A stretch of 64,000 nt of DNA from Raillietiella orientalis (taxonomy: Eukaryota), in assembly GCA_036172245.1 (NCBI GenBank), contig JAYWIR010000091.1:62001-126000 (forward strand). The letters are read 5' to 3'. A model generated the notes under the pieces. That model was not told where the DNA came from and ran no database searches. It saw nothing but the letters and a program-made list of their open reading frames with translations. Shown piece by piece: positions 19,767-64,000 of the stretch. The position numbers and the translations under genes were made by a program. Within the stretch, counting starts at the first letter, position 1; each line of letters begins with the position of its first letter.

Positions 19767-19780
19767 CGCTGTCTCGGCAG

Positions 19781-35025: not shown

Positions 35026-38000
35026 TCGTCCGGGAACCGCGTAGTTTTGTTACGGGATCACCACAGATTCTGCAATACTTCCTTATCGCGCGAGCCACAG
35101 CTTTGAAAACAACTTGACGTCCGAGTTCACCAAGGTGATCGGACGCCAGCTGTTAAGTTGGCGCAAGTCTCCGCCTTTCGGCAGGAGACGCACCTTCGCT
35201 GAGCGGAAGAAATCCGAAATGTTCCCGCATTCCCTCATCAGCGACGCGAGTCTCAGCATCAAGGGGATGAGCTCCACTGCATACCATTGATAAAATTCTG
35301 CAGGAAGTCCATCCTCGCCTGGCGCCTTTCGTCTCTTCAGCCCAGCAATGGCGGACGAGAACTCCTCCGCCGTGAAGGGCTGGTTGAGACTTTCGCGTTC
35401 CTGCTCGCCGACGACAGAAGCATCCTGAGACAGGTGTATCTCAGAAAGAATATCCTCCGTCGGGGATTTTGCGTACAGCGAGGAGTAGTAGCGTCTCACA
35501 ATGGGGCGTACTTCGGCTGGGACCGAGAATTCCTGGCCCTTTTCGTCCAACAGGCATGCTGCTCCGGACTGCCAGACCTGGCGTTCGGCCCTCGTCTTGT
35601 ACTCCGCGAGACGCCTGACATCCGCGCGTCTGGAAAACGTGCGGGCCTGCAGAAAGTGTGTGCTGTTGGCCACGCCTTCTCCGAGACCGCGTGGAAGCCG
35701 GTGCAAAGGGAATTCGCAGCAGAACTCGCGGACAGATCTTTTAAGATTGCCCAGTCCGCGAGTTCTTGAATGGCGAATCCTGCAAAGTGCTCACGGAGAT
35801 AGTCCGCAGCCTCCGGATGGCTAAGATAATCCTCCTGCATTCTCCAGTTTTGCAACGGAGGCCCTTTTCCTGGCGGAAGGAGCTCAAACTCCAACCTGTG
35901 ATGGTCAGAAAGCCCAGTCAACAATCTTCCTCTCCTACCTACACGTGAATGTAGGTTTTCATCGAAGAAAACATGATCGAGCGGTCTTCTAATTCGAGGT
36001 TTGCTTACCATCAATTTGGCGGCGTGCACCGACGTGCACATCTCGATGGGCAACGCGCGCTCCCTGGGGCGGCTCCAATCGTCGGAGAGCAGGCGGACGT
36101 TAAAGTCCCTCACGACGAGGTGCGCCACTTGGGGGCCGGAGTTGTTCAGCCATTGTCTCTGCACCTTACCAAGGAAAAGTAGGAAGAGTAGGAAAGCTAC
36201 TCTTTCTTCGAGGTAGCGAAAGCCACTCGGCGCGAAGACGTTCGTAACGACGAGATCGATGGACTCGGACCACTTGATGACAAGTTGGCCTTCCCGTCCT
36301 TCGTCGTCGAAACGAACACCACGCACCGCTTCCGCCATTTTTCCTCTTAAGAGGAACGCGACGCCGCACGTGTGTGCGCCGCCGCATCGCCAATGTAGCG
36401 CTCCGCCTGCGCGCTTCTGGATTTCGGCTGCCTGCTCGTCGGAGATTAAGTGAATCTCCTGCAGGAGCGCGAGGTCGAAGGGGCGCCAGGCGTTTGCTAC
36501 TCAGCGCCTCTTCTCGTCGTGCTGCAGTCCGTTCACGTTCCAACACGAAACGCACAGACGACGAGAAGACGCGTTTCCCCACATCAATGATGAGAAGTTG
36601 GCGGCATTTTGCCCGCTTTCCCCGGCGAGCGGTCGGTGAGCAGCACTGCTGAATGGAGATTACGGTCGCCACCGTCGTCCGTCGAGCTGCACGAAATCGA
36701 GTGCTGATTTCTGCGTAACGTCGTTTGACGCTCCGGGATGAGCTCTTGCTCCTTCGCGGCAAGCGCTGCTTGCCTCAGGGCTTTAACCCGTCGCGTTGCG
36801 GCTTCCGCGCGTGTGATCCGACGTGCGTCGGTGACCTGAGACTCCGTTTGGGAGTCTGATTGAAGCGCAGGCGCTTCGGGACTCACCTGCTCTGTCGTTT
36901 TGGAGGTAATCACGAATGTAACCGTGGACACTTCCTTTTTCGCGATCACCGCAACATCGTCCCTAGCGATCGCAACTTTCGCGCAATTCGCGACCGCAGC
37001 GGTAGCCTTTCCAGAGGCAGAAAGAACATTCGCGCGACTCTTTTGCATCTCGCAACAGTTCTTTCCCTTAAGAGGCTCTTGGAACTAGGCTGCGGAGAAT
37101 TTTAGGGAGATTTTAATTTTCTACCTTCCACCGCAACCTTCCACCCACCGTCCGGTTGTTCGTAGCGCTTCGCAATTTTCTTGAGGGACGCCTACGAACG
37201 TTCCTCCCCAACCGCCTAGGGCGCAGCTTTCGCAGCACCGTTAGAAGGCGGCGAAAGCGCGACCCCGCGGCAGTCATGAGATTGCTCCTCTCCGTCCTAG
37301 TTGAAGAACTTGCTTCGCGGCTCGAAGTATTGTGCGCACAACAACTTAATCAGATATTTGTGCTCGTGTGTGCCCGGAAAGGGGAAATTTCCTGACGAAA
37401 CTACGAAAGAAGCGCCGAGGATATCGCGGCAGAAGATTTGCAGTGGTACCGTGCAGCAAGACCAGCTGCCAGGATGCAGGCACCTAGAGGAGGAGTGGAG
37501 AGACCGTCGTCCCCCATGGAACCATGGAGGTAACGTGCGGCAACGGCGAGGCGATGGCAGGCATGCCGAGGTTCGGGCCCGAGGCGGGCTTTGCTGCGCC
37601 GGCGACGGCGCAGCCTTTTCCTATGCGTCGGTGGCGGCTGGACAAGCGGGTGTCCAACCACCAAGAAAATTCGGGTAGCCGCTCTGCAGCACAATCCAAA
37701 AGGTGGATCGGCCAATAGTGGATTTAGAGCCGAATGTAAAGACCATCATTTTGAAGACTGAGCTGATCAAATTTAATAATATCAGGGAGGTCTGTCTGTC
37801 ACTCGATAGAACGGATATCAATTTTGAACACATAAAGGCGATCATACCGGTAAATAACGGGTTCACAGTCTTCACCGACTGTGAAAATATTAGAGATCGA
37901 TTGATCCAGGAAAAGATCAATATAAAAGGGAGGACGGTTTGTGGTATTAACGAAATGCCATACACAACCGTCTTTCTGAACGGCATCTCCATCCTCACAC

Positions 38001-41000
38001 CGCAAATAACGGTGTGGAACTTTTTGGAAAAGTATGGGGAAGTTTTGGACATGAAATTCCAGAACTTCTCCAAAAATATATTTTCTGGCGACATGTTCGC
38101 CAAGATGAAGATGAAGGAGGGAGCTGTTATACCTAAGTTGGCGTTCATTGACGAACAATCCCAGGGAGTGAACGTGCGTTACCGGCAACAACCGATATTC
38201 TGCACCGGGTGCAAGCAGTTTGTCCACAGGGCCGGCGCTTGCCCAACGTGTCGTTGTTTTCGCTGCTGTAAAGTGGGACATCAAGTCCCAAACTGCCCGC
38301 AGCCGGAAGTGTGCTCCTTCTGCAAGAAACACGGACATGCCAAATGGAGCTGTCCGAAGTTTGCAAACTGCAGAAGGATTCGAGGTCTCTCTCCCGTGAG
38401 AGAGAGAAACACCAAGGAGGCGGAACAGCCTCAGAAGGCACGAAGGATGAACAAGGTGGAGGAAGCCGTCATGGTATTCAAAGACGGCTTCATACAGGTA
38501 GGGAAGAAAGGAAAGAGGAGGATGCTCATCAAGGAGCAAGAAATACCTCTTAACTTAGAAAAAGAAAAGCAAGAAGGCGAGAAGATGAAGGTAGCGCAGA
38601 AAGGCACGGAAGAGAAAATAGCCGAAGCCTCACCGGTGTCGCAGGAGGCCGTGCAATCTATTGAGAAGCTGGCATCACTGGCTAATAAACTCCTAGATGT
38701 GCCGAGCGGTCCCAAGCAAGAAAAAATCCTGCAGAAGTTTTGCAATGCACAGGAAAAGGTCAACCAGCTTGTGGAGGTCACCCAACGCGAGAAGCTAGAG
38801 GAACAGCTTCTCGACGTGAAGGGGAACTTCTGCGCCAAGGTCGAGATAGAAGCGCTATCTGGAAAAATTCATTGCGCAAGCCGAACACTCTACGGAGGAG
38901 GTGGAATTAACCGACCTCACCGGAAAAGAGAGTGACTCCGACAGCGAGAAGCCCGCTGCTTCTTCATTGTCTGGAAGAGCACGCTCTCTCAGACAGAAGA
39001 AGCTCAGGAAGGCCAAGAAATAGGTCTTCCCCTTTTATTGCCTCTTCCCTATCAAACGCCAGGAGGCTGAACATCGCCTCCTGGAATGTAAACGTTGTGG
39101 TCGACCGGGGAAAAAGAAAAAGGATTGTACGGACCATCGCACAAGACAAAGTGAGCTTGCAGGAGACCCACAAGATGGGTCTCGAGATTAGGCCGCAAAT
39201 GGAACGGCGATTCAACGGTCAGATGTTCGTCAGCGAGGGAGAACAAAAAACGCAGGAAGTGGCGGTCCTAATCAAGAAGAACCTGGCCACCACTATTCTA
39301 GAATTGTTCTGTCCCCAACCCGGACGAATAATCGGCGTGCGACTGGGCTGGTCCGCTACAGTTCACCTCATCTTGGTGAACGTGCACGGGCCGCACAGGC
39401 TGAAACATCGTTGTGCGGAGGCGCTGCATGCAGCACTATGTGAAAAGGTTGCCCGAAGGACGTCGTGACTGCTGCTGGCGATTTAAAAATATTGGATGAG
39501 ATCACTCACTTTCAAGACGCCAGAGGAAGGACGGCGTATCAGCGGCAATCCTAAATGGTCGGACTGGTGTGGCGAACTGCAAGTAACAAGCCGATCGATG
39601 ACGTCCTGCACAGCACCGAACTTGGGAATCGCATCCAGGGTTTACAAGACATTATGACCACGGTATCCGATCACCTCCTGGTGCGGTTTTCCCTGAGAAC
39701 GAAGAATCCTCGGAGGAGGCAAGGCAATAGGGCGGTGCTCATCAGCATGCCCGCCTGGTACGAAACCCTCCCCAGACATCAGCCTGTCCTGCAGACGACT
39801 GTGGAAGAAACAACAATCCGAAGAGTCGCCGACTGGGACAGCCTGGAACACAGGATACACCGGTTTGCAAGCATGCAGTTCGGAAAAAGGCGCTTGAGGC
39901 AGGAGGCGTACCGGCAGCTGAACATCCAAGATCGCTCACTCTCAAAGTACTCCGATGAGTACGAGAGTCGGTACGAATTTCAGAACAGAAAATTGGAAGT
40001 CGGCGTGCTGGAGCAGGGAAATCTGGCAACAGATATCTTCTGCATCCAGTAGGACGGTCAAAAGCGACAGTCGTCTGAGGACATCGTGGATGCCTTTCAC
40101 AGGCATTACACGAAACACTTCAGGCGACAACATCTATGTCGCTCTAGTCAAGAAGTCTTTCTGAGCTACCTCGAGAAGAGGACCGACGATCACCAGCGGA
40201 ACAGACTGGAGGAGGAGTTCTTCGAAGATGAGGTGAAGACTGCGTTTGGTCAACTAAGCAAGGACGTGGCAGCGTGCCCTGACAGCGTACCCATCACTCA
40301 CTATAAGCGGTACCTGCATGCCTACCTGCGTTTGTTCCACCAGTTGACCCACTGCATCCGCGAAGAAGGAAGACTTCGACAGTCCTTCTACGAGACTCGA
40401 ATGTGATTGTTGCCAAAAGGAGGAGACCTCACGCATGTCGCTCAATGGAGGCCAATTTCGATCCCGAACTCGGATGCGAAGTGGTTGGCGAATATCTGGT
40501 CCAGCCGCTTAGGCAGGGTCATGACGAAGCTGATCTCTCCGGTCCTCACATGCGCTGTCTTAGGTCGCCACATGTCGGAGAATGTCAAGTTCGCCCAGGT
40601 CATAGTAGGCCTCAGCCGATATGTCGGTGAGAACCTGTCGCTGGAAATCTCTGACATGGAGAAGGCTTTCGACACCATCGACCATGGGATTCTGCAGAAC
40701 GTTCTGGAGAAGCTAGGCCTTCCGAAACACTTCAGCAACTTCGTGAGGGTGGTACTCCAGAACCAGCACTGCCGAATCAAAATCAACGGTTAGGAGACTA
40801 CACCAATCCGGATGGAACGGGAGTCTGGCAGGGCGATTCGCTAAGTCCGATGCTGTTCGCCATCTCCATGAAGGCGTTCTCGTCCTTTATCGAGAAAAGC
40901 GGACGACTGCAAGGCATAACAATCGATGGGCGGCATTTTATCCATCTGGCATACGCTGATGATCTACTCTTCTTTATCAAGGGAGAGAGAAATCAACGAG

Positions 41001-44000
41001 CGTTTCTGGATGTGGTAGACCTAATTGATCAAGGCCTGGAAAGAGAGATCAACGCCTAGAAAAGCGAGCCCTTGCCCGTTGGAATCCTCGATCTCTCCGC
41101 TCTAACAGGGAGAGGATTACGAACGGTGGACAAGGCCAAGTACCTAGGTGTCTTCATTGGCGGCGTCACCGCGTCGAAGCTATTGTGGTATGAGATACTA
41201 GGGAAAACGGCAAATGAAGCAGTCAAGTACACCCGAACGGACCTTGGAATGAAGCGAAAGGCCAAAATATGGAACGGAGTACTCCTTCCAAAAGTGCTCT
41301 CCTTGGCAGCCTTCGCGAGGATGAACAAGGACAAAAGGAAGGAGTCCGACAAGCTGCAGAGGAAAACACTGTGGGGCGACTATCGCCCAAGAGTCCGACT
41401 AAAACCCCTGTGTCGTCCCAGGGATGAAGGCAGTTCCGGGATGAAGTCGCTTGCACACTACATAGAAATCATGGATACGCGACACCTTCTGGACATTGCC
41501 ACTCACTGGGATGACAGGCCGTATTCGGCGCACAGGGCCTTCGCGTTGTTGTTGAACAACTCGGAAGGCCTGATGACTGCTCTGCTAGGCCAAGCAGGCG
41601 AATGGAAAAAAATCGTCCCAACCTAGACGAGGAAGCAACAGCTGGTGTGTAAGCGTAAACTCAAGATCGTGCCCAAAAGTAGTGAACTCTGGCAGGACGA
41701 GTCGATCCTGGTTATCCCTTGGATGCTTGTTGTAACGCTGGACACGAGAAGCTGGATCCACCAGCGGTCCAGAGTTACTTTGCAACGGATCCAGTAATGG
41801 CGCCGAGGAAGATACCTACATCACTCTCGTGTACTTCGGTACATAGAGATGATGTAAGGGAGGTTCACCCATCACACCCGTGAGATGTGGATTAACCACA
41901 ACGACTTTGCGTGGTAGAGGGTAACCAAAATGAACCTCCGTAGGATGATCAAGTATGAAGATAAAGACACCAGCGCCCTCCAAGAAGCCGCCGACCGCTA
42001 CGGGAGCGATCGCGTCAACCTGCTAGCGATCGGCACGACGCTCTGGAGGAGTGACCTTCCCCCGAGGACCCAGGACGACCTCCTGATGTTTTATCATGGA
42101 TGAATCCAGAGTGGATCCCGATTGCAGCACTACACCGGAAGAAGGGAAGATCGAGACTGCACAGCATGTGGAGACATCCACACGAGACTTCACGTCTTGA
42201 CCTGTCAAAGATTGCTTCATGACTGGCTGATCCTGAAAAGGATCTTCGGACTTACCACCAGGTCCGCAATGGAGCTCCTCGCCGGGTTGTTTCAGGGGGA
42301 TGGTAATGTTCCCTGTTACAATCCCATGGTGAAGACGACCATCGCCCTCTTCATCACCGCCATACTCGTGCGGTGGTGGAGTATGAGGAAAGCCAGGATA
42401 GTCGCACCACCGATGGAGATCCTACAAGGACTCCTGAGAAGGGAAATCGGCATTAGGAATTGCGGAAATATCCAAGCCTGGACGTACCGATTCATCCTGA
42501 AGAGGATAGAGGACGGCGCCCGGGACCAAACATCAGGAAACTGACCATTAGTGCAGAACTTGTGAGAACCAAAGGACTTCATTGTGATAAAAGAAAAGTG
42601 CTAATGGTATGGATGAGATTGTAGTGTGAATGTTTTTATAGAAAAATGTTAGAAAAATAAATTTACCCCACCCTTCGTTTGACTTGGGAAAACTGTCTTG
42701 TTGGGAAGGATGCAGCTGGTTGCTGCATGTTTTGAGGCAACGCAACGCTGCTTTCGTTGGCATATTTCGACGAACCTGCAGACGCCTTCGTGAGGTTTCC
42801 GACTGAAGCCTACGAAATGGACAGAGCGCTCATGGAGACGGTTACCACGCAATTTTCTTTCGCGTGTCCTCCTTTCGCCTTTTCGCACGGAGCGACTGGT
42901 TTTACAGATCCCATTTCGCTAGTAGCGTTTCCGCGATCAGCTACTGCGACAGTAACGGTACGCGCGGAGCCCTTTCGTTTTTTTATAAATGGCTTCCCTG
43001 CCGCGCGATTGCCGTTTCAGGGCTTTGATGCTGAGCAAGCAAACTTTGAGACCGCGTTCGGGCCCTTTTTATCTTCGGCCTTTCGCGTTCCCCCCTGTTT
43101 TTTTTTTTTGAGGATGCTGTTTTCTCCTCTGCGCACTCTTTGGCACGCCGGAGTTTAGCATTCTCCTTTTTTTCTTTATGTCGGGGCACTTTCTAATTTC
43201 GTTCCCGGACTCCTTACAGTAGCGACACTTCGGGGAAGAGCATTCTTTACCCCGATGCCCTACTTTGCCGCATTGCTCGCACGCGCGAGTTTTGCCAAGG
43301 AACCACAGGTGAACGACCGTGCCGCTGACCTGTTGCGCGGCAGACAGTGTGCGGTTGTTAAAAACGGTTACCCAAACCGCAGCAAATCCTGTGTGGACGG
43401 AAGGGAATTTCCTGTACGAACTCTCCTTCCTCCACATCGCATGAACGGTGGCGACTTTCCCCAACGCGTCCTGTCGTTGATCTCCGGCTCTACTTCCGAG
43501 AGAACAGCGACAAAAGACTTGTCCATCGCGGAAGGAAAAACTTTTTTTCCGCGGATGGACTAAGGAGTGCGGAGGAGACTCTGCACAAGTGCAGCCTGCT
43601 TGCATCGTTACTTCACATATCCTAATGCTGGAACAGGCATGAGTGCTATGAGGTCCTCCTCTCGCACTCCCACACCGTAGAATTCGTCGGCGAACTCCTC
43701 CCCAGACTTAGCTAGTCCACTTACGTTGTAGCGAAGAGCAGGCTTGTTGCCCTGGGCTTCATAGGCTTGCATCTCCGCCTGGACGGGGAGGCATCCTTGT
43801 ACGGCTGCAGAAGCAACCACGTCCGCAAAGCTCCTGGTCAGTGGAGCGGGGCTCGAACACGTTGTCGCCATCCCTCCAGCTGCGAGAAGTTCCTCAACTA
43901 CAATTCGAGGTCTTCTATGCTGCGTTGTTCACTGCTCATCCTTAGGGATGTGCAGTGAAATGCGTAAACACAACCAAACAGCGGAACCACGGAGGGACAC

Positions 44001-44022
44001 GAAATCTCGTCCGACTCGTATG
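35026..44022 (-). mobile_element. Second family A-like copy, 3'-deleted, with ORF1 split by the F insertion at 37307-42692
   Basis: ORF2 35026-36584 is closely similar to 3665-5203. ORF1 pieces at 43871-42693 and 37306-36584. 5' end CGAGTCGGACG near 44018. Confidence 0.82.
37307..42692 (+). mobile_element. Full-length family F LINE, disabled
   Basis: 5' end AACTTGCTTCGCGG. ORF1 has three knuckles (CTGC, CFRC, CSFC). ORF2 has EN and RT (AYADD). 3' end AATAAA...GACTTGGGAAAA. Confidence 0.9.
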
Positions 44023-44345
44023 AAGGCGAACATTAAAATCGCTTGCAACCAGATGGGCATTCCGCACGCCTGCCTCAGTCAGCCAGTCGCGCCGGAGGGC
44101 AAAGAAAAATTCTTTGCTTGCCCTCCTGTTCGTCAGGTCTGCGCTGCTCGGGGCGTACACGGTCGTGACGATCAGGTCAATGTAGTCGGACCACCTGAGG
44201 ATCAGCTGGACGACACGACCGTGATTGTCGAAACGCACGCCGCGCGCCGTGGCCTCGTCGCCCACCTGCTAGGCTGGCCAAAGCAGGTGGGCGACACCGC
44301 AACTTCTCGGTGTCCCACACCGATACCACAGCCTCCCTGCGGAGG
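44023..44345 (-). pseudogene. Family E-type EN fragment, host of the A-like insertion
   Basis: Reads RLWYRC...VYAPS...AHLVASDFNVR. Paralog of 48900-49205. Confidence 0.8.
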
Positions 44346-46201
44346 TAGGCGCGACCACACCCTCGGACGTCCCGTTTTACGCGCTGACACCAATGGAGGC
44401 GGGGGATCAGTTGCTCGACGCACCGACCCGTCCCCTTCCTAGGGTCCCGCCCCTACAGGTGGCTTACGCCGCAATGCCACTTTCTCAGGATTAAAACCTG
44501 GGCTATTCTATAGCCGTCGGATCCGCGCGGCCATTTGGAATGTCAACGGTGTGCGCGATGAAGGCAGCAGACGAGATACGGCCGACATTCTGCGTGAGCT
44601 CGACTTGGCCCTGCTGCCGGAGATCCACGTGATCTCCACAGCGGACGTCCAGGAGATCCTATCGATCGCGGAGGGTCGGTTGTACTGGCAATGCAGCGCC
44701 CGCAACACCCGTGATGTCGCGTTTTTTGTGAAGTCAGCTTGCGACGCTGCCGTCAAGGGCGTGTTGTTTGATGACGACGGTCGGGTCGGTCAGCTGATTC
44801 TTAGCTGGTCCGACTCGATCGACCTCATTGTCAGGAGTGTGTAGGCCCCCAGCAGAAAAAAAGGGTACGGGGACCGCACCAGTTTCCTGGAATTTCTGAA
44901 TCGCGAATGGATGGCGGACACGAACGTGCAAATGGATCACCTAATAGCATGAGATTTCAATCTCTGCCGGCTAAGAGGTGAGCCGGAAACACAGGAGAAC
45001 GCGATGAACCAGTTGTGCTGCGCCATGCGTGCGCGCCACTTGTTCGAGGGAGAGGACTGAATATCCCACAGCATCGATCGCGTCTTCGTCGACGCTGACC
45101 TGTGTTCACATGTCGAAAACGGGGCAAGATTGCGTCGGCGCTGTCGGACCATTCCCGGTTAATGTTCGAGATGCGGCCGCGCGACAACGGACTGACATCG
45201 AGGGCGTGGCGTCTGCCGGCCGACTGGACGCGACTCTCAGGTGCGAAGGAACATCTTCGCAAATTCCTGAAAGCAGTCACGCTCGAGAGCTTCGAGCACT
45301 GGGACCTTCTCAAGAAATCAGTGCGGGAGTTCTGCGAGCAGTTTTGCCTGAACCGCTTTCCCCAGGGATTTGGCGAAGGGCCTGGCAACTATCAGGCCTT
45401 TTTACAGGCACGTCGGTACAAGTAAACCCCTATTGTCCGTCGCCTGGCCGAGTACCGCGCTGGGGCCGAATGTTAAGCCCGGCAATCCGAGTCGGCCAGC
45501 TTGCTGGACCAGGGCCGGGAACGTTTTCTTCGGCGGCGGTACGGTATCTTATGAGGGGATCTTATACCTCCCTTTATTCCAGGGCGCCCCCGGAGCGAGA
45601 CGCCTCTCGGCGCTTGCTCCCAGAAATTGCCCCGGCATTAAGGGAGGAAGAGAAGGAAAGCCTCGACGAGCCTTTTAGCATCGGCGAAATTCACGCCGGT
45701 ATCAAAAGGCTTAAGAGGGGTAAAGCTCCAGGGGAGGACAGGTTGCCCGCGGAGTTCTTTCAGATTTTCGCAAAAGAACTCGCCTTCCTGCTGCTCAAGT
45801 TGACGAGGCTAATCCAAGATGAAGCTGATCTACTTGCTTAGTTTCGGTCAGCCAGAGTGAGGCCCCTCGCGAAAAAGGAAGACCTGAGAAAACTCAACAA
45901 TTGGCGTCCGATCACAATTGTAAATGCGGACGCCAAGCTGATTGCCGGGCTGCGGGATTCGCGATTGTCACAGGTAGCCAATACCATAATTAGCCTCGGA
46001 GCAGACTTACGCTGTTACCGGGCGAAGTATGGAGGTCAACCTGTTCTTTGCTGCCACATGGTTGCATGTGCAGAGGTGCGATAATGAACGACATGGGAGA
46101 ATCGCCAACTCCACTTTGGGGCAGCCAGTCGGGCATGAAAGCGAGATTCGGGCGAGGAAAGGAGCCTTAGCGATTGCGATCGATCTGTCTGAAGCGTTCG
46201 A
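44346..46201 (+). pseudogene. Family D ORF1 end and ORF2 up to RT KAFD
   Basis: Reads RIRAAIWNVNGV, SIDRVF, LSDH, GFGEG, KAPGED, NWRPITI, IDLSEAFD. Confidence 0.83.
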
Positions 46202-49348: not shown

Positions 49349-51253
49349 ATGGCCAGTACACAGGATAGTGTGGAGGAGCAAGCCACTGGATGCACTTCAG
49401 CTGCACTTGAAGTGGCCGCATCCTCCGTAATGGTTTCATCGCCCCCGGTGCGGAGTTACGCCGCCGTTACCTCCCGAAGACCAGGACCCTGCGATGCGGA
49501 GTTCCAGGCATATGTGTCATCAGGATACATGCCTGCACTCCGTTATAAGGTCAGTGGGCCACTTAACGGGAGACTCGGTCGTGAGCTCAATGATGAGCTC
49601 GTCCGGATAGGCGTTCGCGAGGAGGAACTCCTTGCCATAATGCCTGCTGGCAGGATGGAATATACAAAGATTCGGTGCAAGAACGCAGCACTTGTGCAGC
49701 GCCTTCTCCGTACGCCGTTGACCATCAATGGCAAGGAAGTCCTACCTACCGCGATGGACGACTCTTTTGTCGTTCAATTGTGCGACATCGAACCGGAAAT
49801 CTCCGACCGCGATGTCGTAAATGTGCTGGCGAAGTTCGCCACCGTGCACGCTCTGTGGAGGAGGCCAAATCCTCTAAAGGATTTCCCCTCTGTCCACATT
49901 GGACAAGCCTCCGCGAGGATCACCGTCGCGAACAGGCGTGTTGTGCCTGAGCAGCTGCAGGTGAACGGCACGGTCGTTCACCTGTGGTTCATAGGCCAGA
50001 CTCGCGCGTGAGAGCAGTGCGGCAAGGATGGGCACCGAATTAAAGAGTGCCCCTCTCCAAGATGCCGCTATTGCAAAGATTCCGGGCACGAAATCAAGAA
50101 GTGCCCGGTACTTGCAAGAAAAAGAGCCGCAGCGGAAATTCGTCGGGTTCAAGAGACCACTGCACGAAAAGCCGCAGCGGCAAATAAAAAACGTCGTCCG
50201 CAAAAACTCGAAAAAAACCACGAGCGATCCGCGGATAACAAGAAAGCATCCCCGCCCGCAACGCCCCGAAAGGGGAAAGTCACGGCGGGGAAGCCAATTA
50301 AAAAGGGGCGCGAGGGTTTGACGCGTGCCGTGCCTTCCCTCTCTGCCGAACTCGCAGGCACCTTTCCGAACCTGGAACCAGGAAATCTCCGTAACACCCG
50401 GGAGGGAAAGGTAGGAAAACAGGAAGATCGCAACAGTGCGAAGACTTCTTGCCCCATTCCGTTGTCCCTTCCGAGTTCCGGACAGCCCCACTGCAGCGCA
50501 GGCCCCACTGCAAAGGCTACGAAAGCCGTAAAAAGCAGCGTCGCAACAAGCAAAAGCACGCTGCATGCAGTCGCCCCATCGCCGACTCGGCAGGAGAGGA
50601 GCAATCTCCCGACTGTCAAGAAGGTGACTCCGTTGCCGCCTTTTAAAGGCGTAGCGAAAGCAACGCCCCCAGAGAACGCAGCGAAAATCCCGGAGGTTTC
50701 CGCAACTACTGTCGCGGAAGCTTCCGAAAATCGCGAAGGCGAATGGAAGGTTGTGGAGAGGAGGAAAGGAAAATCTCCAAAGAAAGCTCCGCAACCTCCA
50801 TCCCTGAGCTCTTCCAAAGGAAAAAGCAGTCGCGCGAATACGAAAACACGCGCGGCTTGTGACTCTTCCAAGGAAAAAGCCAACGCCTTCAACGCGTGCA
50901 AGTCCGCTTCTGTGACCGCCGAGAAGACCATTCCGGTGCAATCGGACGGATGCAAGCGCACGTCGATCGTGCGAGCATCAGACTTCGCAAAGGAGTCCGA
51001 TAACGCAGCTGAACGACGCGTAACTCGCGCGGGAGCGAGCGCCCGCAGGGCTGAAGCCCTGAGGCGTGACACACTCGCCGCGGAACGGCGAGTGCTCACC
51101 CCGGAACCCACAGGTTCTGCACCCGGGGAGGAGCACCCGATTACGTGCAGCACAGTTGAGGCCGGTGGCGACCGCGCCCTCCAGCCCGTCGTGCTGCTTA
51201 CTGCCCGCTCGCCGGGTGAGGCGAGCACCACGGCCTCGCTTTCCCAGCCGTGA
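49349..51253 (+). pseudogene. Family C ORF1p with one premature stop (50009-50011, Cys TGC to TGA)
   Basis: ORFs 49349..50011 and 50318..51253 are in the same frame. Two CCHC knuckles. The paralog has TGC at about 55968. Confidence 0.88.
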
Positions 51254-54200: not shown

Positions 54201-54824
54201 TGCAAAATAGCGGGAGTCAGTAAGCTCCTCGGCAGCTGGACGACAAAGGAGCTGGTGCAAGCCGCCACACCTCGGAATCGGGCGAAGGGACTGCTTCGGT
54301 GGAGCGAACATTTAAGTGTGCCCCCCGGAGAGATAGTGGTTCCCCCCGTTTGTTTGGACAGCTCCGTGTTCCCCCTTAAGTGGAAACAAGATGTGCTCCT
54401 CTTTTTACATTGTGCATTTCACTGTAATAGGCAGCGAAGCATCGTTTCCGGGGGAGCTGCTTTGCCAAACTGTTTAAGGTGCGGAGAGATCGAGTCTTTT
54501 CCGCACCTTGTGTTGGACTGCGGTGACCTCCGGGAACTGTGGCGAAGGCTCACTTCGGCCATCATGCCACAAGGAGGCACTGCCATTGATGTGCTGCGGC
54601 GCTTCTTCAGCAGAAATGGACTTTCGGGTGGCGCGATTGTCGCAACCATGTGTTGCGTTCGCGCCATCGTGAAGGCCCGCTACGCCCTGGAGTTGTCATC
54701 GCAGCGAAGGGAGGCTCACCTGCTTGCAGCTCAATTCATGGAGAAGGCTTCAAGGTGGTCTCATCTTCGTGACAAGGTGAATGAGGACATCACCGGCATA
54801 CATCGCCGGTTTACACACCTTTGA
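51253..54824 (+). pseudogene. Family C ORF2p (EN, RT, zinc finger) with stops at 52723 and 53050 and a frameshift near 53620
   Basis: Motifs WNVNGL, GDFN, SDH, DLHKAFD, GIRQGDSLSP, YADD, RYLG, CLRCGEIESFPHLVLDC. Confidence 0.92.
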
Positions 54825-56552
54825 GAACGGCGTAATCCGGTGACCCCTGCGACCTCTCGCCCACCCATACCCCGTCCCTGTTCGCTCGGTAAAATTTCCG
54901 GTGCCCATGCTTTTATCCCCGTGTCTTCCAGAGCGATCCCAAAGACCCTTATCCCGTCCCCCTTATTCATTGTTTTTATTTTTTTTTGGTTTCTTTGTGT
55001 TTCCCGCCCCCCCACACCGTTCACAAAACTGTTACTCTGGCCTGCGTGCCAGCAATATTCTCTTCATTCTTGTTCAGTCGTCGGTTGGGAGTTTGGTTCC
55101 CAACTGGTTTATTTTGTATAATTGCTTTTTTTTTGGTTATGTTATATGGAATAAACGCCCCGGCGTGACCGGGTGAGAAATCTCCTGCGCTCGTACAGTG
55201 CAGACGTGTTTCCGCGTTTATCCGCGCCAACGATCGGGCAACTTCGTGCCTGGGTTTTCGCTCTCACTTGTGTGTTCCTCTGCAATCTGCCAAGTGACAT
55301 AGTGCAACATGGCCAGTACACAGGATAGTGTGGAGGAGCAAGCCACTGGATGCACTTCAGCTGCACTTGAAGCGGCCGTATCCTCCGTAATGTTTTCCTT
55401 TCCCCAGTGACGAGTTGCGCCGCCGTTACCTTTTAAAGACCAGGACCCTGCGATTCGGAGTTCCAGGCATATGTGTCATCAGGATACATGCCTGCACTCC
55501 GTTATAAGTTCAGTGGGCTTCTTAACGGGAGAATCGGTCGTGAGCTCAAGGAGGAGCTCGTCCGGATCGGAGTTCGCGAGGAGGAACTCCTTGCCATAAT
55601 GGCTGCTGGCAGGATGGAATATACGAACATTAGGTGCAGGAAAGCAGCACATGTGCAGGGCGTTCTCCGTACGCCGTTGACCATCAATGGCAAGGAAGTC
55701 CTACGAACCGAGATGAACGACTCTTTCGTCGTACAATTGTGCGACATCGAACCGGAAATCTCCGAGCGCGATTTCGTAAGTGTGCTGGCGAAGTTCGCCA
55801 CCGTGCAAGTTGGGTGGAGGAGGCCAAATCCTCTGAAGGATTTCCCCTCTGTCCACATTCGAAAATCCTTCGTGCGGATCATCGTCGCGAACAGGCGTGT
55901 TGTGACTGAGCAGCTGCAGGCGAGCGCCACGCTCGTTCACCTGTGGTTCTTAGGCCAGAATCGCGCGTGCGAGCAGTGCGGCAAGGAGGGGCATCGAATT
56001 AAAGAATGCCCCTCTCCAAGATGCCGCTATTGCAAGGATTCGGGGCACGAAATCAAAAAGTGATCGGTACTTGCAAGAAAACGAGCCGCAGCGGAAATTC
56101 GTCGGGTTCAAGAGACCACTGCACGAAATGCCGCAGCGGCAAATAACAAACGTCGTCCGCAAAAACTCGCAAAAAACCACGAGCGATCCGCGGATGAACA
56201 GAAAGCATCCCCGCTTGCAACGTCCCGAAAGGGGAAAGTCACGGCGGGGAAGCCAATTAAAAAGGGGCGCGAGGGTTTGATGCGTGCCGTGCCTTTCCTC
56301 TCTGCCGAACTCGCAGGCATCTCTCCGAGCCAGGAACCAGGAAATCTCCGTAACACCCTGGAGGGAAAGGTAAAAAAACAGGAAGATGGCAACAGTGCGA
56401 ATACTTCTTGCCCCGTTCCCTTGTCCCTTCCGAGTTCAGGACATCCCCACTGCAGCGCAGGCCCCTCTGCAAAAGCTATGAAAGCCGTAAAAAGCAGCGA
56501 AGCGACGAGCGAAAGCACGCTGCATGCAGTCGCCCCACCACCGACTCGGCAG

Positions 56553-59500
56553 TTTTCCGCAAGTCCCACGAGAGGTGGGGTCAATTTATTTTTCTAAAAT
56601 TTTTCTATAAAAACATTCACACTACAATCTCATCCATACCATTGGCACTTTTTTTACCATTATGAAGTCCTTGGGTTCTCACAAGTTCAGCACTCATGGT
56701 GCGTTTCCTGTTGTTTGGTCCCGGGCGTCGTCTTCTATCCCCTTCAGGATGAATCGCTACGTCCAGGCTTGGATTTTCCCACAGTTTCTGATGCCGATTT
56801 CCCTCTTCAGGAGCCCTTGTAGGATCTCCATCGGTGGTGCGGCTCTTCTGTCTTTCCTCATATTCCACCACCGCACAAGTATGGCGGTGATGAAGAGGGC
56901 GATGGTCGTCCTCACCATGGGATTGTAACACGGAACATTACCATCCCCCTGAAACATCCCGGCGAGGATCTCCATTACGGACCTGGTGGTGAGTCCGATT
57001 ATCCTTTTCAGGATCAGCCAGTCATGCAGCAATGTGGGACACGTCAAGACGTGAAGTCTCGTGGCGATGTCTCCACATGCTGTGCAATCTCGTTCTTCCG
57101 TTCTTCCGTTGTAGTGCTGCAATCGGGACGCACTCTGGATTCCTCCATGATAAAACATCAGGAGTTCATCCTGGGTGCCCGGCGGAAGGTCACTCCTCCA
57201 TAACGTCGTGCCAATTGCTAACAGGTTGATCCGGTCACTCCCGTAGCGATCGGTGGCTTCCTGGAGGGCACTAATATCACTGTGTTCTTCTTGAATTAGT
57301 CTTCGGAGGTTTGTTTTGGTTACCCTGGAGCACGCAAAGTCCTTGTGATTGAACCACACTTCGCGAGTCATGTGGGTAAACCTTCCTAACATCATCTCTA
57401 TATACCTAAGTATACGAGTGTGATGTAGGTACCCTCCTCGTTTCCACTCCTGGATTCGTTGAAGGGTAACTCTGGACCGCTGGTGGATCCAGCTTCTCGT
57501 GTCCGGCGGGACAGGAAGCATCCAAGGGATCACCAGGATGGAATCGTCCTGCCAGAGTTCCCTACTTCTCGGCACGATCTTGATTTTGTGCTTTCGCACC
57601 AGCCGTTGCTTCCTCGTCCCGGATGGGTCGTTTTTTTTCCATTCGCCTGCTCGGCCTAGCAGCACAGTCATCAGGCCTTTGGAGTTGTTCAACAACAACG
57701 CGTAGGCCCTGTGCGCCGCATACGGCCAGTCATCCCAGTAATAGGCAATGTCCAGGATGTGTCGCGTATCCATGATTTATATGGAGTGTGCAAGCGACTT
57801 CATCCAGGAACCGCCTTCTTCCCTGGGGCGACACAGGGGTTTTAGTCGGACTCTTGGGCGATAGTGGCCCCACAGTGTTTTTCTCTGCAGCTTGTCGAAC
57901 TCCCTCGTGGTTTCCTTGTTGATCCTCACGAAGGCCGCCCGAAGACCACTTTTGGAAGGAGTACTCCGTTCCATATGTTGGCCGTTCGCTTCATTCCAAG
58001 GTCCGTTCGGGTGTACTTGGCTGCTTCCTTGGCCGTTTTTCCTAGAATCTCGGTCCACAATAGCTTTGACGCGAAGACGACGCCAATGTAGACACCCAGG
58101 TACTTGGCCTTGTCCAACGTTCGGAATCCTCTCCCCGCTAGAGTGGAGAGATCGAAGATTCCAACGGGCAAGAGCTGGCTTTTCTGAACGTTGATCTTTA
58201 GACCCAGGCCTTGATCCATCAGGTCTACCACATCCAGAAACGCTCGTAGATTTCTCTCTTACTTGATAAAGAAGAGTAGATCGTCAGCGTATGCCAGATG
58301 GGTAAGACGCTGGCCATCGATTATTATGCCTTGCAGTCGTCCGCTCTTCTCGATAAAGGACGACAACGCTTCCATGTAGATGACGAACAGCATCGGACTT
58401 AGCGAATCGCCCTGCCCCCGGATCCATCCGGATTGCTGCCGTCTCATGGCCGTTGATTTTGATTCGGCAGTACTGGTTCTGGTGTACCACCCTCACGAAG
58501 CTGCTGAAGTGTTCCGAAAGGCCTAGCTTCTCCAGAACCATCAGCAGCATCCCATGGTCGATGGAGTGGAAAGCCTTCTCCATGTCAGTGGACACCAGCG
58601 CCAGGTTCTCTCCGACGTATCGCCTGAGTCTCACGGTGGCCTGGGCACACTTAACATTGTCCGACATGTGACGTCCAGAGACTGCACACGTTTGGACCGG
58701 AGAGATGAACCTCCACATGAACTTGCCTCAGCGGTTGGACCAGATCTTCGCCAACCACTTGCCATCGGAGTTCAGGATCGAGATTGGCCTCCATTGAGCG
58801 ACCTGCGTGAGGTCGCCTCTTTTTGGCAACAATCTCATCGGACTCTCGTAGAAGGACTATGGAAGTCTTCCTTCTTCGCGGATGCAGAGAGTCAACTGGT
58901 GGAACAAACGCAGGTAGGCATGAAAGTACTGCTGATAGTGAGTGATGGGTACGCTTTCAGGGCCCGCTACCACGTCCTTGCGTAGTTGACCAAACGTAGT
59001 CTTCACCTCGTCTTCAAAGAATTCGTCCTCCATTCTGTTTCGCTGGAGATCGTCGGTCCTCTTCTCAAGGTAGCTCAGATAGGCCTGTTGACTAGAGCGA
59101 GAGAGGTGTTGTCGCTTAAAGTGTTTTATGTAATGCCTTTGAAAGGCATCCACGATGTCCTCAGACGACTGTCGCTTTTGACCGTCGAACTGGATGCCGA
59201 AGATATCTGTTGCCAGATTTCTCTTCTTCAGCACGCCGACTTTCCCTTTTATGTTCTTGAAGACGTACCGACTCTCGTACTGATCGAAGTACTTTGAGAG
59301 TGAGCGATCTTGGATGTTCAGCTGCCTGTACGCCTCCTGCCTCAAGCGCCTATCTCCCAACTGCATGTTTGCAAACAGGTATATCCTGTGTTTCAGGCTG
59401 TGCCAGTGGACGACTTTTAGGATTGGTTTTGCCTTCAGAATCGTCTCCAGGACAGCCTGATTTCCGGGATGGGTTTCGAACCAGGCGGGCATGCTGATGA

Positions 59501-62200
59501 GCGCCGCCCTGGTGCCTTCCCTCCGCCAAGGATTTTCCGTTCTTAGGGAAAACCTCACCAGGGGGTGATCGGACACCGTAGTCATAGTGTCGGGAAACCC
59601 CTGGATGCGGTTCCCAAGTTCGGTGTTGTGCAGGACGTGATCGATCGGCTTGTGACTTGCAGTTCGCCACACCAGTACGAACTCGTCGGATAACCACCGA
59701 TACGCCGTCCTTCATCTGGCGTCTTCGGAGTGAGTGATCTCATCCAATATTTTTAAATCGCCAGCAACTGTCACGACGTCCTTCGGGCAACCTTCTCACG
59801 GAGTGATGCATGCAGCGCCTCCGCACAACGATGTTTCAGCCTGTGCGGCCCGTGCACGTTCACCAAGATGAGGTGAACAGTAGCGGACCAGCCCAGTCGC
59901 ACGCCGATTATTCGTCCGGTTTGGGGACAGAACACTTCCAGAATAGTGGTGGCCAAGTTCTTCTTGATTAGGACCGCCACTCCATGCGTGTTTGGTTCTT
60001 CCTCGCTGACGAACATCTGACCGTTGAATCGCCATTCCCTTTGCTGATTAATCTCGAGATTCATCTTGTGGGTCTCCTGGAAGCTCACTATGTCTTGTTG
60101 TGCCATGGTCCGCACAATCCTTTTTCTTTTTCCCCGGTCGACCACAACGTTTACATTCCAGGAGGCGATGTTCAGCCTCTTGGCGTTTGATGGGGAAGAG
60201 GCCATAAAAGGGGAAGACCTATTTCTTGGCCTTCCTGAGCTTATTCTGTCTGAGAGAGCGTGCTCTTCCAGATAATGAAGAAGCAGCGGGCTTCTCGCTG
60301 CCGGCGTCACTCTTTGTTCCGGTGAGGTCGGTTACTTCCGCCTCCTCCGTCGAGTGTTCGGCCCGCGCGATCAGTTTTCGAGATAGCGTCTCTATCTGTC
60401 CTTGGCGCAGAAGTTCGTCTTTACGTCGAGAAGCTGTTTCTCTAGCTTTACGCGCTCGGTGACCTTCACAAACTGGTTGACCTTCTCCTATGCATTGCAG
60501 ATCTTCTGCAAGATTTTCTCTGGATGGGGACCGCTCTGCACATCTAGGACTTCATTACCCAGTGATGCCAACTCCTCGGTAGATTGCAGGGCCTCCTGCG
60601 ACACCGGAGTGGCTTCGGCTATTTGTTCTTCCGCGCCTTCCTGCGCTACCTCCATCTTCTTGTTTTCTTGCTTTATACCTTCCAGGATAAGAGGGGTTTC
60701 TTGCTTCTTGACGAGCTTTTTCTTCTTTTCTTTCTTCCCTACCTGTATGAAGCCGTCTTCCGATACCGGAACGGCTTCTTCCACCTTCTTCGGCCTTCCT
60801 GCCTTCTGAGGCTGTTCCGCCTCCTTGGTGTTTCTCTCTTTCACGGGAGAAAGACTTTGAATCCTTCTGCAGTTTGCAAACTCCGGACAGCTCCATTTGG
60901 CATGTCTGTGTATCTTGCAGAAGGAGCACACCTCCGGCTGCGGGCAGTTTCGCACTTGATGTCCTACTTTGCCGCAGCGGAAACAACGACACGTTGGGCA
61001 AGCGCCGGCCCTGTGGACGACTTGCTTGCACTCGGTGCAGAATATCGGTTGTTGCCGGTAACGCACGTTCACTCCCTGGAATTGTTCGTCAAGAACGGCT
61101 AATCCAGGTATCACAGCTCCCTCTTTCAACTTCATTTTGGCGATCATGTCGCCTGAAAACATATTTCCAGAGAAGTTCTAGAATTCAAGGTCCAGAACTT
61201 CCCCATACAGCTCCAAAAAGTTCCAAACCGTTAGTTGCGGTGTGAGGATGGAGATGCCGTTCAGAAACACGGTTGTGTATGGCATCTCGCCAACACCACA
61301 AACCATCCTCCCTTGTATATTGATCCCCTCCTGGATCAATCGCTCTCTAATCTCTTCACAGTCTGTAAAGAATTTGAACCCGTTGTTTGCTGGTATGATC
61401 GCCTGTATGCGATCAAAATTGATATCCGTTTTATCGAAAGACACATACACCTCCCTGATATTATTGAACTTGATCAGCCCAGTCTTGAAAATGATGGCCT
61501 TCACATTCGGCCCTAACTGCACGATCGGCCGATCCACCTTTTAGACTTTACCGCATAGCGGCTTCCCGAATTTTCTTGGTGGGTGGACACTCGCTCGTCC
61601 AGCCGCCACCGACGCATAGGAAAAGGGCTGCGCCGCCGCAGCCGAACAAGATGGCGTCTCGCCTTGAACCGCGTGGACGCCCGCGGATCCTGCTTGGGAC
61701 GACGCCGCCCCGAGCGCAACCCTCGACGTCGCCACCGTTGCCACCGCGGGCGGCACCCTCGGCATCGCCGCTACAGGCGCGACCTTCCCCCCCGTGGGCA
61801 CGATCCTCGGCGTCGACGCCGCGGGCACGACCTCCGCCTTCGTCGCCGCGGGCACGACCTCCGCCTTCGTCGCCGCGGGCACGACCCTTGGCATCGCCGC
61901 CGCCGGAGGAGCAAAGCCCGTCGCGGGCGCGATCCTCGGTATGCCTGCCACCGCCTCTCCGTTGCCGCACGTTCCCTCCATGGCTTCCATTGGGGACGAC
62001 GGTCTCTCCACTCCTCCTCTAGGTGCCTGCATCCTGACAGCTGGTCTTGCTGCACGGGACCACTGCTGGTCTTTTGCCGCGATCTCCTAGCCACTTCTTT
62101 TGTAGTTTCGTCTGGAAAACTTCTCCTCGCCGGGCACACACGAGCACAAGTAACTGATTAAGTTGTCGAGCGCACAATACTTTGAGCCGCGAAGCAAGTT
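56553..62200 (-). mobile_element. Full-length family F LINE (about 5.65 kb) with a 14-bp TSD, disabled
   Basis: CACCGACTCGGCAG at 56539-56552 and CACTGACTCGGCAG at 62201-62214. ORF1 and ORF2 motifs as in the other F copies. Confidence 0.92.
61735..61930. repeat. 27-bp in-frame coding minisatellite (VVPAATKAE-like units) in the F ORF1 N-terminus
   Basis: CGCCGCGGGCACGACCTCCGCCTTCGT is repeated. Fewer units at about 19350-19480, and the tract is deleted at about 37600. Confidence 0.75.
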
Positions 62201-64000
62201 CACTGACTCGGCAGGAGAGGAGCAATCTCCCGCCTGTCAAGAATGTGACTCCGTTGCCGCCTTTTGAAAGCGTAGCGAAACCAACGCCCTCAGAGAACGC
62301 AGCAAAAATCCCGGAGGTTTCCGCAACCTCTGTCGCGGAAGCATCCGAAAATGTCGAAGGCGAATGAAAGGTTGTGCAGAGGAGGTAAGAAAAACCTCTA
62401 GAAAAAGCTCCGCAACATCCATCCCTGAGTTCTTTTGAAGGAAAAATTAGTCGCGGGAATACGAAAACACGCGAGGCTTGTGCCTCTTCCAAGGAAGAAG
62501 CCAGCGCCTTCAACGCGTGCAAGTCCCCTTCTGTGACCGCGAAGAAGACCATTCCGGTGCAATCGGACGGATGCAAGCGTATGTCGATCGTGCGAGCATC
62601 AGACACCTCAAAGGAGTCCGATAGCGGCGCTGAACGAAGCGTTAATAGCGTGGGAGCGAGCGCCCGCAGGGCTGAAGCCCTGAGGCGTGACACACTCGCT
62701 GCGGAACGGCGAGTGCTCACCCCGGATCCCACAGTTTCTGCACCCGGTGAGGAGCACCCGATTACGTGCCGCACAGTTTAGGCCGGTGGCGACCGCGCCA
62801 TCCAGACAGTCGTGCTGTTTACTGCCCGCTCGCCGGGTGAGGCGAGCATTACGGCCTTGCTTTCCCAGCCGTGATGAGGGCAATCGCGTCTTCTCGCCGT
62901 GTTGCCGTAACGTCTTGGAACGTCAACGGGCTCCAACACGAGGAAAAGAGGCGACTAGTGGCTGACGCTCTGCACGCCTCCGACTTGACGCTCTTGCAGG
63001 AGATACACAGCATCTCTGAAGAGCAGGCTGCCGAAATCGAACGGCGCGCGGGCGGAACGCAACTTTATAGGTGCGGCGTTGCACCTACGTGCGGAGTCGC
63101 TTTTCCCGTGCGAGGAACTTTTGCAAGAGTGGTGCGAAGCGTTTGCTTCGACGCGGAAGGCACAGTGGGACAGCTTGTACTCAAGTGGTCCAACTCGATC
63201 GACCTTGTCGTAACGAACGTGTACGAGCCGAGTAATGCTCGACGATGGGCCAAAATAATTGAGTTCTTCGGTAGCCTTCAAAGCCAGTGGCTCACCCGAT
63301 CTCACCCTACTGTTGCTTATCTCATTGCGGGGGACTTTAACGTCCACCTGCTTTCCGAGAATAGGTCCCACAAAAGGGAAAAGTTGCTAGCGGTGGAGAT
63401 GTGCGCGTCCGTGCACGGGTGCCACTTCTTCGCTAGCGACCCTGTTATGGCAGCAACGCCGGACCACGTATACCTTGATGAACACTTGCTCTCTCGAGTG
63501 GGTCGGAGAGGTCCCGTGCCGTCCGTGCTTTCCGACCACAACAGGCTCGAGTTCGAGTTGCTTCCGCCAGGCAAGGAGCCTCCAAACTGTTTTTGGAGAA
63601 TGCGGCAGACTGGCTAAGCCACCCTCAGGCGGCTAAGCATCTTCTGCAGTACCTCCTCGGCTTTTCCATAGTGAGCTCGAGGACTGGGACGATCTGAAAA
63701 GATCGGTCCGCGGGTTCTGCTGCCGGTTTCCCTTGCTCCAGCTTCCGCGCGGCTTCGGAGAGGGCGTAGCCAACAGAGGAGATTTTCTGCAGGCCCGCTT
63801 TTCTTCCAGGCGCGCGGACGTTGGTCGATAATCCGACTACAAGGCCAAGGCCGAGCGCCAGGTCTGGCAGTCAGGGGCGACAGTTCTGCTCGACGACCAG
63901 GACCGGGAATGCTGGACTCCAGCCGACAAGCGACGGATAGTCAGGCGCTATTACCCTTTTCTGTATGCAGAGGCACCGATGGAAGGCAGTCTCTCCTGGC

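What the first reader, a model, noticed from the sequence alone, without database searches (positions are those of the whole stretch)
37278..62230. Divergent family F targets one ORF1 site kept as a conserved island in two host families
F sits in C ORF1 with TSD CAC(C/T)GACTCGGCAG followed by GAGAGGAGCAATCTC. It also sits in the A-like ORF1 at 37306/42693, where the same GGAGAGGAGCAATCTC (reverse complement at about 37278-37293) lies at identical spacing, although the surrounding low-complexity ORF1 tails are poorly alignable. The empty site is at about 50580-50610. Inference: this purine-rich block next to the TSD is the recognition sequence.
Basis: partly seen in the sequence, partly recalled or inferred. 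Interest (0 to 1): 0.7.

Follow-up and report, generated by a model that had tools for sequence, protein, structure and literature searches.

The report
LINE carrying a target-copy RNA leader
A jumping gene lands backwards at one exact base inside the first gene of related jumping genes, brings along about 30 bases copied from its previous landing site, and a version with the same enzyme but a different front end lands at a different site, which suggests that the carried copy, not only the enzyme, helps choose where it goes.

Summary
Site-specific insertion confirmed. F is an L1-type LINE (APE + RT) lying antisense at one base of host LINE ORF1. Of 91 full-length 5' ends, 66 abut the motif and 25 a tandem F. 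Host C is filled in 74 of 100 listed copies, host B in 0 of 100.

The interpretation changes. In host A the exact GAGAGG start is not native: 0 of 6 empty A sites have it. Only an 18-bp core is shared with C. Full-length copies carry a leader of at least 29 nt that overwrites the flank: 20 of 20 pairs differ at the same 'TSD' base. A truncated copy keeps a true 14-bp TSD.

A third host, D, lacks the motif yet is filled in 22 of 42 copies. Those copies show no D-specific endonuclease residue but have another 5'UTR (D-left: 17 J-type vs 6 F-type; C-left: 2 vs 45). So the motif is more likely an annealing pad than the sole recognition sequence. Leaders are known for Drosophila R1A and R2; this scan noted the leader idea before on other DNA of this genome. 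Retargeting by 5'-end swap is the new, unproven part.

The parts
56553..62200 (-). F copy 1, full length, decayed: ORF1 with CCHC knuckle, ORF2 with APE and RT; fixed 3' end without poly(A); antisense in host C ORF1
   Evidence: 87% to the near-intact copy L168, domains
56539..56552 (+). Host-side 14-mer at the F 3' junction; first-strand nick after 56552
62201..62214 (+). 14-mer at the F 5' junction: looks like a TSD, genome-wide it is leader-derived in full-length copies
   Evidence: 20 of 20 pairs elsewhere differ at position 2
62215..62236 (+). Motif GAGAGGAGCAATCTC plus rest of the 18-bp core shared by C and A; first 15 or more bases fall within the carried leader
50580..50615 (+). Empty C target site (nick position between 50593 and 50594), encoding PTRQ|ERSNLPT in the ORF1 tail
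37307..42692 (+). F copy 2, antisense in host A ORF1
42693..42706 (-). Native A-type 14-mer at the F 3' junction
37293..37306 (-). 14-mer at the F 5' junction in A: mosaic of C-type and A-type bases, 7 of 14 different from the left copy
37278..37292 (-). Motif in host A; its GAGA start is C-type (delivered by F), the GGAGCAATCTC part is native to A
15254..19766 (-). F copy with broken 3' end, upstream member of a tandem pair
19767..19780 (+). 14-mer spacer between tandem F copies
19781..21649 (-). Internally deleted F copy, outer member of the tandem pair
21650..21685 (+). 5'-junction 14-mer and motif variant (G at +10) in host C
5841..5876 (-). Homologous but unused site in the ORF1 of host family B (negative control)

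Best explanation
F is an L1-type APE/RT retrotransposon that uses the ORF1 tail of related LINEs as a landing site, antisense. Steps: (1) shown by junctions: the first nick is on the host sense strand after CAG (C, A) or TAA (D), and the second is 14 bp away, giving true 14-bp TSDs in 5'-truncated copies. (2) Inferred from sequence: the F transcript starts at least 29 nt upstream of the element inside its old host, so the cDNA ends in a copy of the donor's 14-mer plus motif. (3) Inferred: this cDNA end anneals to the new target just beyond the nick and replaces it. In host A the switch back to A sequence falls inside the 18-bp block identical between C and A, so that block works as an annealing pad. 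(4) Inferred, least secure: the endonuclease supplies only a short, degenerate preference (G-N-Y-A-R^N-N-G-N-G fits C, A and D and not B), and the donor flanks on the RNA decide which candidate site yields a finished insertion. A recombinant with the F body but a J-type 5'UTR settled in host D, picked up D flanks and has stayed with D.
For: Leader: in 20 of 20 paired C-host copies the 14-mer has G at position 2 on the 3' side and A on the 5' side. Genome-wide that base is A in 59 of 66 outer 5' junctions vs 4 of 100 host-left flanks. Recurrent variants at +4, +10, +15 (4, 9, 6 of 20) and none above background further out; +10 G in 23 of 66 junctions vs 1 of 26 empty sites (p 0.0015), with no linked host variant in the flanks. 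In A: 10 of 13 full-length or near full-length junctions with A-type right flank carry C-type GA at +1,+2, all 13 carry C-type bases in the 14-mer, and they are mostly A-type from +23. F-proper 3' junctions in A stay closer to A. The truncated copy L131 has a perfect A-type TSD and native motif. Retargeting: 25 of 25 junctions of the derived J 5'UTR are followed by the D 14-mer, while 31 ancestral J ends are dispersed. Left host vs 5'UTR, paired by coordinates: D 17 J / 6 F-type, C 2 J / 45 F-type (p 2e-9). Endonuclease of 7 J/D copies has no residue fixed against 15 C-inserted copies. The two near-diagnostic ORF2 C-terminal sites are shared with 18 of 18 older C-inserted copies. D copies are interspersed among C copies on the 3' tree, 10 changes, at least 6 forced. 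APE endonucleases tested so far read about 8-10 bp (PMC1919474, passages).
Against: No RNA evidence: start site and leader are inferred from DNA. Copies are not independent (some loci are near duplicates), so p-values overstate. Nine loci are left/right chimeras (6 D-left with A- or C-right, 3 C- or A-left with D-right), showing that recombination or mis-assembly between copies occurs. D shares 15 of the 29 positions common to C and A (p 0.006) and B misses 6 of those 15, so a longer degenerate protein-read site also fits all four hosts. The middle of ORF2 was seen for one J/D copy only (L159, itself chimeric), and ORF1 differs in its first ten or so residues. L154, a full-length J-type element in A, shows no C- or D-type overwrite of the motif. 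The window's own A junction is a mosaic, not a clean C-type tract. EN swapping changes the target in SART1/TRAS1 (PMC7265360, passages).
Confidence: 0.58

Rival explanations
1. Protein-only recognition (closest to the first reader): the endonuclease, or ORF2p as a whole, reads a long degenerate site spanning the 14-mer and the motif. The leader is real but only a passenger. C, A and D satisfy the site and B does not.
For: 15 positions are common to C, A and D, more than chance; B fails six of them and is unused. Tandem re-insertion (25 of 91) needs only the 14-mer and the right flank. Accepted model for TRAS1/SART1, R1Bm and Tx1L.
Against: With the same endonuclease, J-headed copies should fill C as often as F-headed ones; they do in 2 of 47 paired C loci vs 17 of 23 D loci. 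Known APE domains read only about 8-10 bp.
Confidence: 0.22
2. Timing or tethering: the J-headed recombinant was active when or where D copies were accessible (different promoter, different ORF1 N-terminus, chromatin), so the 5'UTR-host link is historical and not due to base pairing.
For: J and F 5'UTRs are unrelated and could drive different expression. J/D copies have somewhat longer terminal branches than the youngest C-inserted copies. ORF1 starts differ.
Against: C and D copies share contigs and nests. C sites were being filled by older and by younger F sublineages, and 26 of 100 listed C sites are still empty. J/D 5' junctions show their own uniform flank variant (18 of 25 vs 2 of 20 empty D sites, p 5e-5).
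Confidence: 0.1
3. Post-insertion recombination or gene conversion between copies in the nests produced the mismatched flanks and erased protein differences; no RNA leader is needed.
For: Nine chimeric loci of both reciprocal kinds; mosaic 14-mer in the window's A copy; one C site with an F-type flank and no F (C119). An earlier scan note (e1-7513920) read a similar case this way.
Against: The overwrite is one-sided (5' junction only), short, stops within +5..+22 in A, crosses 8 diagnostic mismatches in 18 bp, spares a truncated copy, and affects 20 of 20 C pairs at the same base.
Confidence: 0.1

Closest known systems
R1A of the Drosophila melanogaster group (Stage and Eickbush 2009, PMC2718515; passages and the whole R1 mechanism section read)
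   Same: APE LINE, fixed first nick, second nick at +14, tandem arrays spaced by the 14-mer, full-length RNA inferred to carry upstream target sequence that anneals to the target, truncated copies with true TSDs, uniform 3' junctions attributed to flank read-through.
   Different: R1 targets 28S rDNA, and its leader ends at -9 and gives a 9-bp deletion. F's leader includes the 14-mer and restores an apparent TSD, the targets are ORF1 of three other LINE families, and a second 5' end goes with a second target.
Tx1L in Tx1D, Tx1-Mar in Mariner-N4, Tx1-8_Crp and Tx1-4_AMi in LTR elements (Kojima 2015, PMC4494074; passages and one section read)
   Same: L1-related APE LINEs that use another transposon as a safe target; tandem insertions around a TSD.
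   Different: The targets named in what I read are DNA transposons, LTR elements, RNA genes and microsatellites, not LINE ORF1; no target switch by 5'-end exchange in the passages read.
R2 elements with ribozyme cleavage up to 36 nt upstream in 28S (Eickbush et al. 2013, PMC3774820; passages read)
   Same: Leader of similar length, annealing to the target, junction variants propagated through the RNA.
   Different: R2 has a restriction-like endonuclease, is co-transcribed in sense with rRNA and uses an HDV-like ribozyme. F is antisense to its host and no ribozyme was found.
Engineered retargeting by RNA homology arms (STITCHR, as described in the review PMC13708176; passages read; primary paper not read)
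   Same: Target-matched RNA flanks redirect TPRT to a new site.
   Different: Artificial, R2-based and, in cells, helped by a Cas9 nickase. Here the same logic would have arisen naturally in an APE element.
Zepp / ZeppL LINE clusters of green algae (search listing only; lead from earlier scan notes)
   Same: LINE-only nested clusters.
   Different: F does not insert inside its own body but at fixed bases of other families; centromere link not tested.

Membership tests
L1-type APE non-LTR retrotransposon | ORF2 with N-terminal APE endonuclease and RT | tested here: met
   Pfam PF03372 E 6e-18 and PF00078 E 4e-31 in a 1162-aa open frame of L168; best solved relative human L1 ORF2p, E 1.6e-50
L1-type APE non-LTR retrotransposon | Separate ORF1 with CCHC zinc knuckle | tested here: met
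   PF00098 E 5e-5 above cut-off
L1-type APE non-LTR retrotransposon | 5' truncations with target-site duplication | tested here: met
   L131 perfect 14-bp TSD; dispersed sister copies 12-20 bp
L1-type APE non-LTR retrotransposon | Variable poly(A) tail (typical, recalled) | tested here: not met
   3' end is fixed, ending GGGGAAAA or GGGGAAAC
Tx1 clade | RT phylogeny groups with named Tx1 elements | not tested
   No named Tx1 reference was obtained; database relatives are only 22-28% identical and mostly unnamed
Tx1 clade | Sequence-specific insertion into a repeat or transposon (>20% of flanks, criterion in PMC4494074) | tested here: met
   78 of 84 F-proper 3' junctions at C/tandem (51), D (22) or A (5) sites in a search tilted toward non-C flanks
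R1 clade (works like R1A) | 28S rDNA or telomeric target | tested here: not met
   Targets are LINE ORF1 tails
R1 clade (works like R1A) | 14-bp stagger and tandem arrays spaced by it | tested here: met
R1 clade (works like R1A) | Upstream target sequence on full-length RNA | tested here: inconclusive
   DNA signature strong; RNA itself not seen
R1 clade (works like R1A) | RT or EN placed in the R1 clade | tested here: inconclusive
   Only L1 endonuclease structures were matched at E<=0.1; no tree with R1 references
R2 elements | Single ORF with restriction-like endonuclease | tested here: not met
   Two ORFs, APE
R2 elements | 5' self-cleaving ribozyme | tested here: inconclusive
   Rfam scan of 61900-62300 gave no ribozyme family; fold z -0.67; cleavage not testable

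The most novel reading that the evidence does not exclude
A natural APE-type LINE whose target is set by RNA-borne memory of its last landing site: the same endonuclease inserts at two dissimilar sites (C/A or D) depending on which 5' end and flanks the RNA carries. An element can therefore be retargeted in one step by a 5'-end swap, then stay locked to the new host family and rewrite near-cognate sites toward the donor sequence. This would explain how many fixed-site LINE-in-LINE pairs arise in these nests from a lineage whose sisters are dispersed.
Probability: 0.45. Interest if true: 0.82.

Novelty: new variant of a known kind. Interest (0 to 1): 0.66.

Why it matters
The accepted view is that the endonuclease domain sets the target of APE LINEs, yet those domains read only about 8-10 bp, too little for single-site accuracy in a 210-Mb genome. 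This family gives a natural swap experiment: one protein set, two 5' ends, two targets, an unused near-match host as control, and dispersed sister lineages. It makes the RNA-flank contribution directly testable with four short oligo targets. If right, it offers a simple route by which target specificity originates and switches, and a natural precedent for homology-guided LINE insertion. It also warns that 'TSDs' and 'conserved target motifs' read from full-length 5' junctions can be written by the element itself.

Tried and rejected
Hammerhead ribozyme built from host plus F 5'UTR (GUC, CUGCCGA, GAAA words present): Rfam gave no ribozyme hit, the core deviates from the recalled consensus, and family G shows no compensating stem. 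Rejected.

Long helix between leader and F 5'UTR (seen in the fold): whole-fold z -0.67, and two other places in F pair as well with the motif. Rejected as a guide element.

Palindrome GCCGA-C-TCGGC in the C 14-mer as signal: absent in A, which is also filled.

'All elements with this 3' end are site-specific': false. Searches listed 129 non-C flanks. Of the 60 fetched, most were dispersed sister lineages at or below about 86% identity, and one (L194) was an off-target F proper. The other 69 were not fetched; one search classified F-proper ends by a 3'UTR anchor instead.

Long 5' transduction as the cause of D-left/A-right loci: unresolved, because the far ends of those flanks were not read.

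Expression: no RNA holder listed, which is no evidence either way.

Homolog search gave only distant, mostly unnamed proteins, so no clade name. Sequence look-up in earlier notes found nothing.

Literature: eight searches listed no natural APE LINE retargeted by a 5'-end exchange; the library lacks most subscription papers, I read only passages or sections of six papers, and no supplements were opened.

In the tree, row L108 was mislabelled C (it is A-type) and L097 is a long-branch row with an interrupted 3' end; 34 of 137 ends were left out for lacking 1 kb of alignable sequence.
Full report
What is in the window. The window is a nest of LINEs. F spans 56553-62200 (minus) inside host C and 37307-42692 (plus) inside host A, both antisense to the host ORF1. 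A tandem pair lies at 15254-21649, and an empty C site at 50580-50615. A near-intact copy elsewhere (L168) has an ORF1 with a CCHC knuckle and a 1162-aa frame with APE and RT; human L1 ORF2p is the best solved relative. Hosts C and B also encode APE and RT, and host A's APE domain was matched. The F 3' end is fixed, without a poly(A) tail.

Site specificity. The 30 best-scoring 3' ends (30 fetched of 40 scored, 322 candidates) lie in C (24), in tandem F (4) or in A-like hosts (2). A pattern for the full-length 5' end gave 151 matches. Of the 100 listed, 91 are real junctions and 9 chance; 66 abut the motif and 25 another F (counted by eye). C is filled in 74 of 100 listed copies of 130. A search tilted toward non-C flanks listed 84 F-proper 3' ends: 51 C or tandem, 22 D, 5 A, 6 other. 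Sister lineages share the 3' terminus but are dispersed. On a tree of 103 3' ends, 22 of 23 dispersed rows fall in one supported group apart from F proper, together with two A-inserted sister elements.

The island in A. Nineteen A loci gave 6 empty, 12 filled (by F or sister families) and 1 cut by a contig end. No empty A site starts with GAGA. Natively, A and C share GGAGCAATCTCCCGACTG (exact in 3 of 6) and the peptide PTRQ-x-RSNLPT. Local identity is 65-69%, and the run is modestly significant (codon shuffle p 0.03-0.05 in three copies, not significant in three). Protein constraint in the hosts may be enough to explain it.

The 5' flank is written by F. In 20 paired C-host copies, picked by position and not by base, position 2 of the 14-mer is G at the 3' junction and A at the 5' junction in all 20. 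Variants recur at +4, +10 and +15 and not beyond; +10 G occurs in 23 of 66 outer junctions and 1 of 26 empty sites, with no linked host variant. With an A-type right flank, 13 full-length or near full-length junctions show C-type bases in the 14-mer, 10 of them also at +1 and +2, and mostly A-type bases from +23. Two of these are probably duplicates, four belong to sister family G, three have a D-type left flank and one has an unread left flank. L154 (J-type 5' end) is an exception with an A-type motif, and the window's copy is a mosaic. 3' junctions of F proper in A stay closer to A; for the sister elements and L159 the 14-mer is about equally far from both. Truncated L131 has a perfect A-type TSD and native motif. 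A lineage lacking the first 39 nt carries the modern C 14-mer into an A-type flank. The simplest reading is a target-derived RNA leader of at least 29 nt, with resolution inside the 18-bp identical block. This is the model published for melanogaster-group R1A (PMC2718515, section read) and for R2 with upstream cleavage (PMC3774820, passages). I noted the idea, before opening earlier scan notes; those notes hold it, unproven, for other DNA of this genome.

A third host without the motif. Host D (another LINE ORF1 tail) is filled in 22 and empty in 20 of the 84 rows; the rest are chance or distant matches. Its right flank resembles the C block at about half the positions. D-inserted copies are 93-98% identical to L168 at the 3' end in 13 of 15 cases and interspersed with C-inserted ones. 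Three of six D loci probed have an unrelated 5'UTR (J) followed by D sequence; one more has a D right flank, one an F'-type end with a C right flank, and one is interrupted. Genome-wide, 25 of 25 derived J ends abut the D 14-mer, while 31 ancestral J ends are dispersed (63 rows). Paired by coordinates: D-left 17 J and 6 F-type, C-left 2 J and 45 F-type (p 2e-9); 4 D and 27 listed C loci had no partner or were truncated. Seven J/D endonuclease domains have no residue fixed against 15 C-inserted ones. The near-diagnostic C-terminal sites are shared with 18 of 18 older C-inserted copies. J/D junctions have their own uniform flank variant (18 of 25 vs 2 of 20 empty). At D 3' junctions the base before the element is G in 7 of 22 vs 0 of 20 empty sites, which fits 3' read-through or a preference for AG.

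A negative control. Host B has 151 copies, keeps CAG and 14 of 18 core bases and matches 21 of the 29 positions common to C and A, yet 0 of 100 listed copies are filled. D matches only 15 of 29. This argues against the motif as the sole recognition sequence. It does not exclude a degenerate protein-read site, since B misses six of the 15 positions common to the used hosts.

Mechanism, graded. Shown: fixed nick, 14-bp stagger, antisense orientation, tandem re-insertion, one-sided donor-type flank. Inferred (about 0.85): RNA leader and annealing. Inferred (about 0.45): RNA flanks decide the host family. Tested APE domains read about 8-10 bp (PMC1919474, passages); the +-5 consensus fitting C, A and D would occur roughly once per kilobase, so something else must add specificity. 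Against this stand the EN-swap result in SART1/TRAS1 (PMC7265360, passages), nine chimeric loci, non-independent copies, an unread ORF2 middle in most J/D copies, and no RNA data.

Verdict. Real and well supported as a site-specific LINE-in-LINE system, working like R1A and Tx1L; clade membership beyond L1-type is not shown. The target switch with an apparently unchanged enzyme is the part worth an experiment. I found no such natural case in eight searches of a partial library; engineered retargeting of R2 by RNA homology arms is described in a review (PMC13708176, passages).

Noticed in passing
G000 C53:319961 and C53:339514: An F 5' junction whose motif runs straight into the reverse complement of another 14-mer, as if two F 5' ends were joined head to head through the motif's short inverted repeat; would put the leader end at +16 or beyond.
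   Followed up: no
G000 C119:85275: A C site with an F-type flank variant and a 2-nt insertion but no F: possible loss of F between the direct repeats or an aborted insertion.
   Followed up: no
L006, L012: Exact 15-mer motif in unrelated DNA with no F; L012 also has CAG before it.
   Followed up: partly
L007, L011, L132, L136, L138, L139, L147, L154, L159, L218: At least five different 5'UTR types (F, F', G, J, K) sit on bodies of this lineage, pointing to frequent 5'-end exchange.
   Followed up: partly
G000 C19:1163905 and C28:2883963: J-like 5'UTR followed by the G-type 14-mer and the motif; hosts not read.
   Followed up: no
L218 and G000 C87, C141, C71, C114, C280: Elements of this lineage inserted repeatedly a few bases inside the J or K 5'UTR of relatives, after CGA: further fixed sites.
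   Followed up: no
L180-L239: Dispersed sister lineages with the same 3' terminus, TSDs of 12-20 bp and a bias for CGA or CTC before the junction.
   Followed up: partly
window 5841-5876 and 150 other B copies: The unused B site keeps the same third-codon bases as C and A in the core although overall tail identity is about 42%, hinting at a constraint on the hosts unrelated to F.
   Followed up: partly
window 15254, 20866, 41607, 57637: Two F copies in the window break at the same T-rich position of the element.
   Followed up: no
L116, L124, L107, L026: Another family appears inserted in host A about 560 bp downstream of the F site in several loci.
   Followed up: no
window 2114-7221: Host B copy with long open ORF1 (672 aa stop to stop) and ORF2 (1040 aa) frames.
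   Followed up: no
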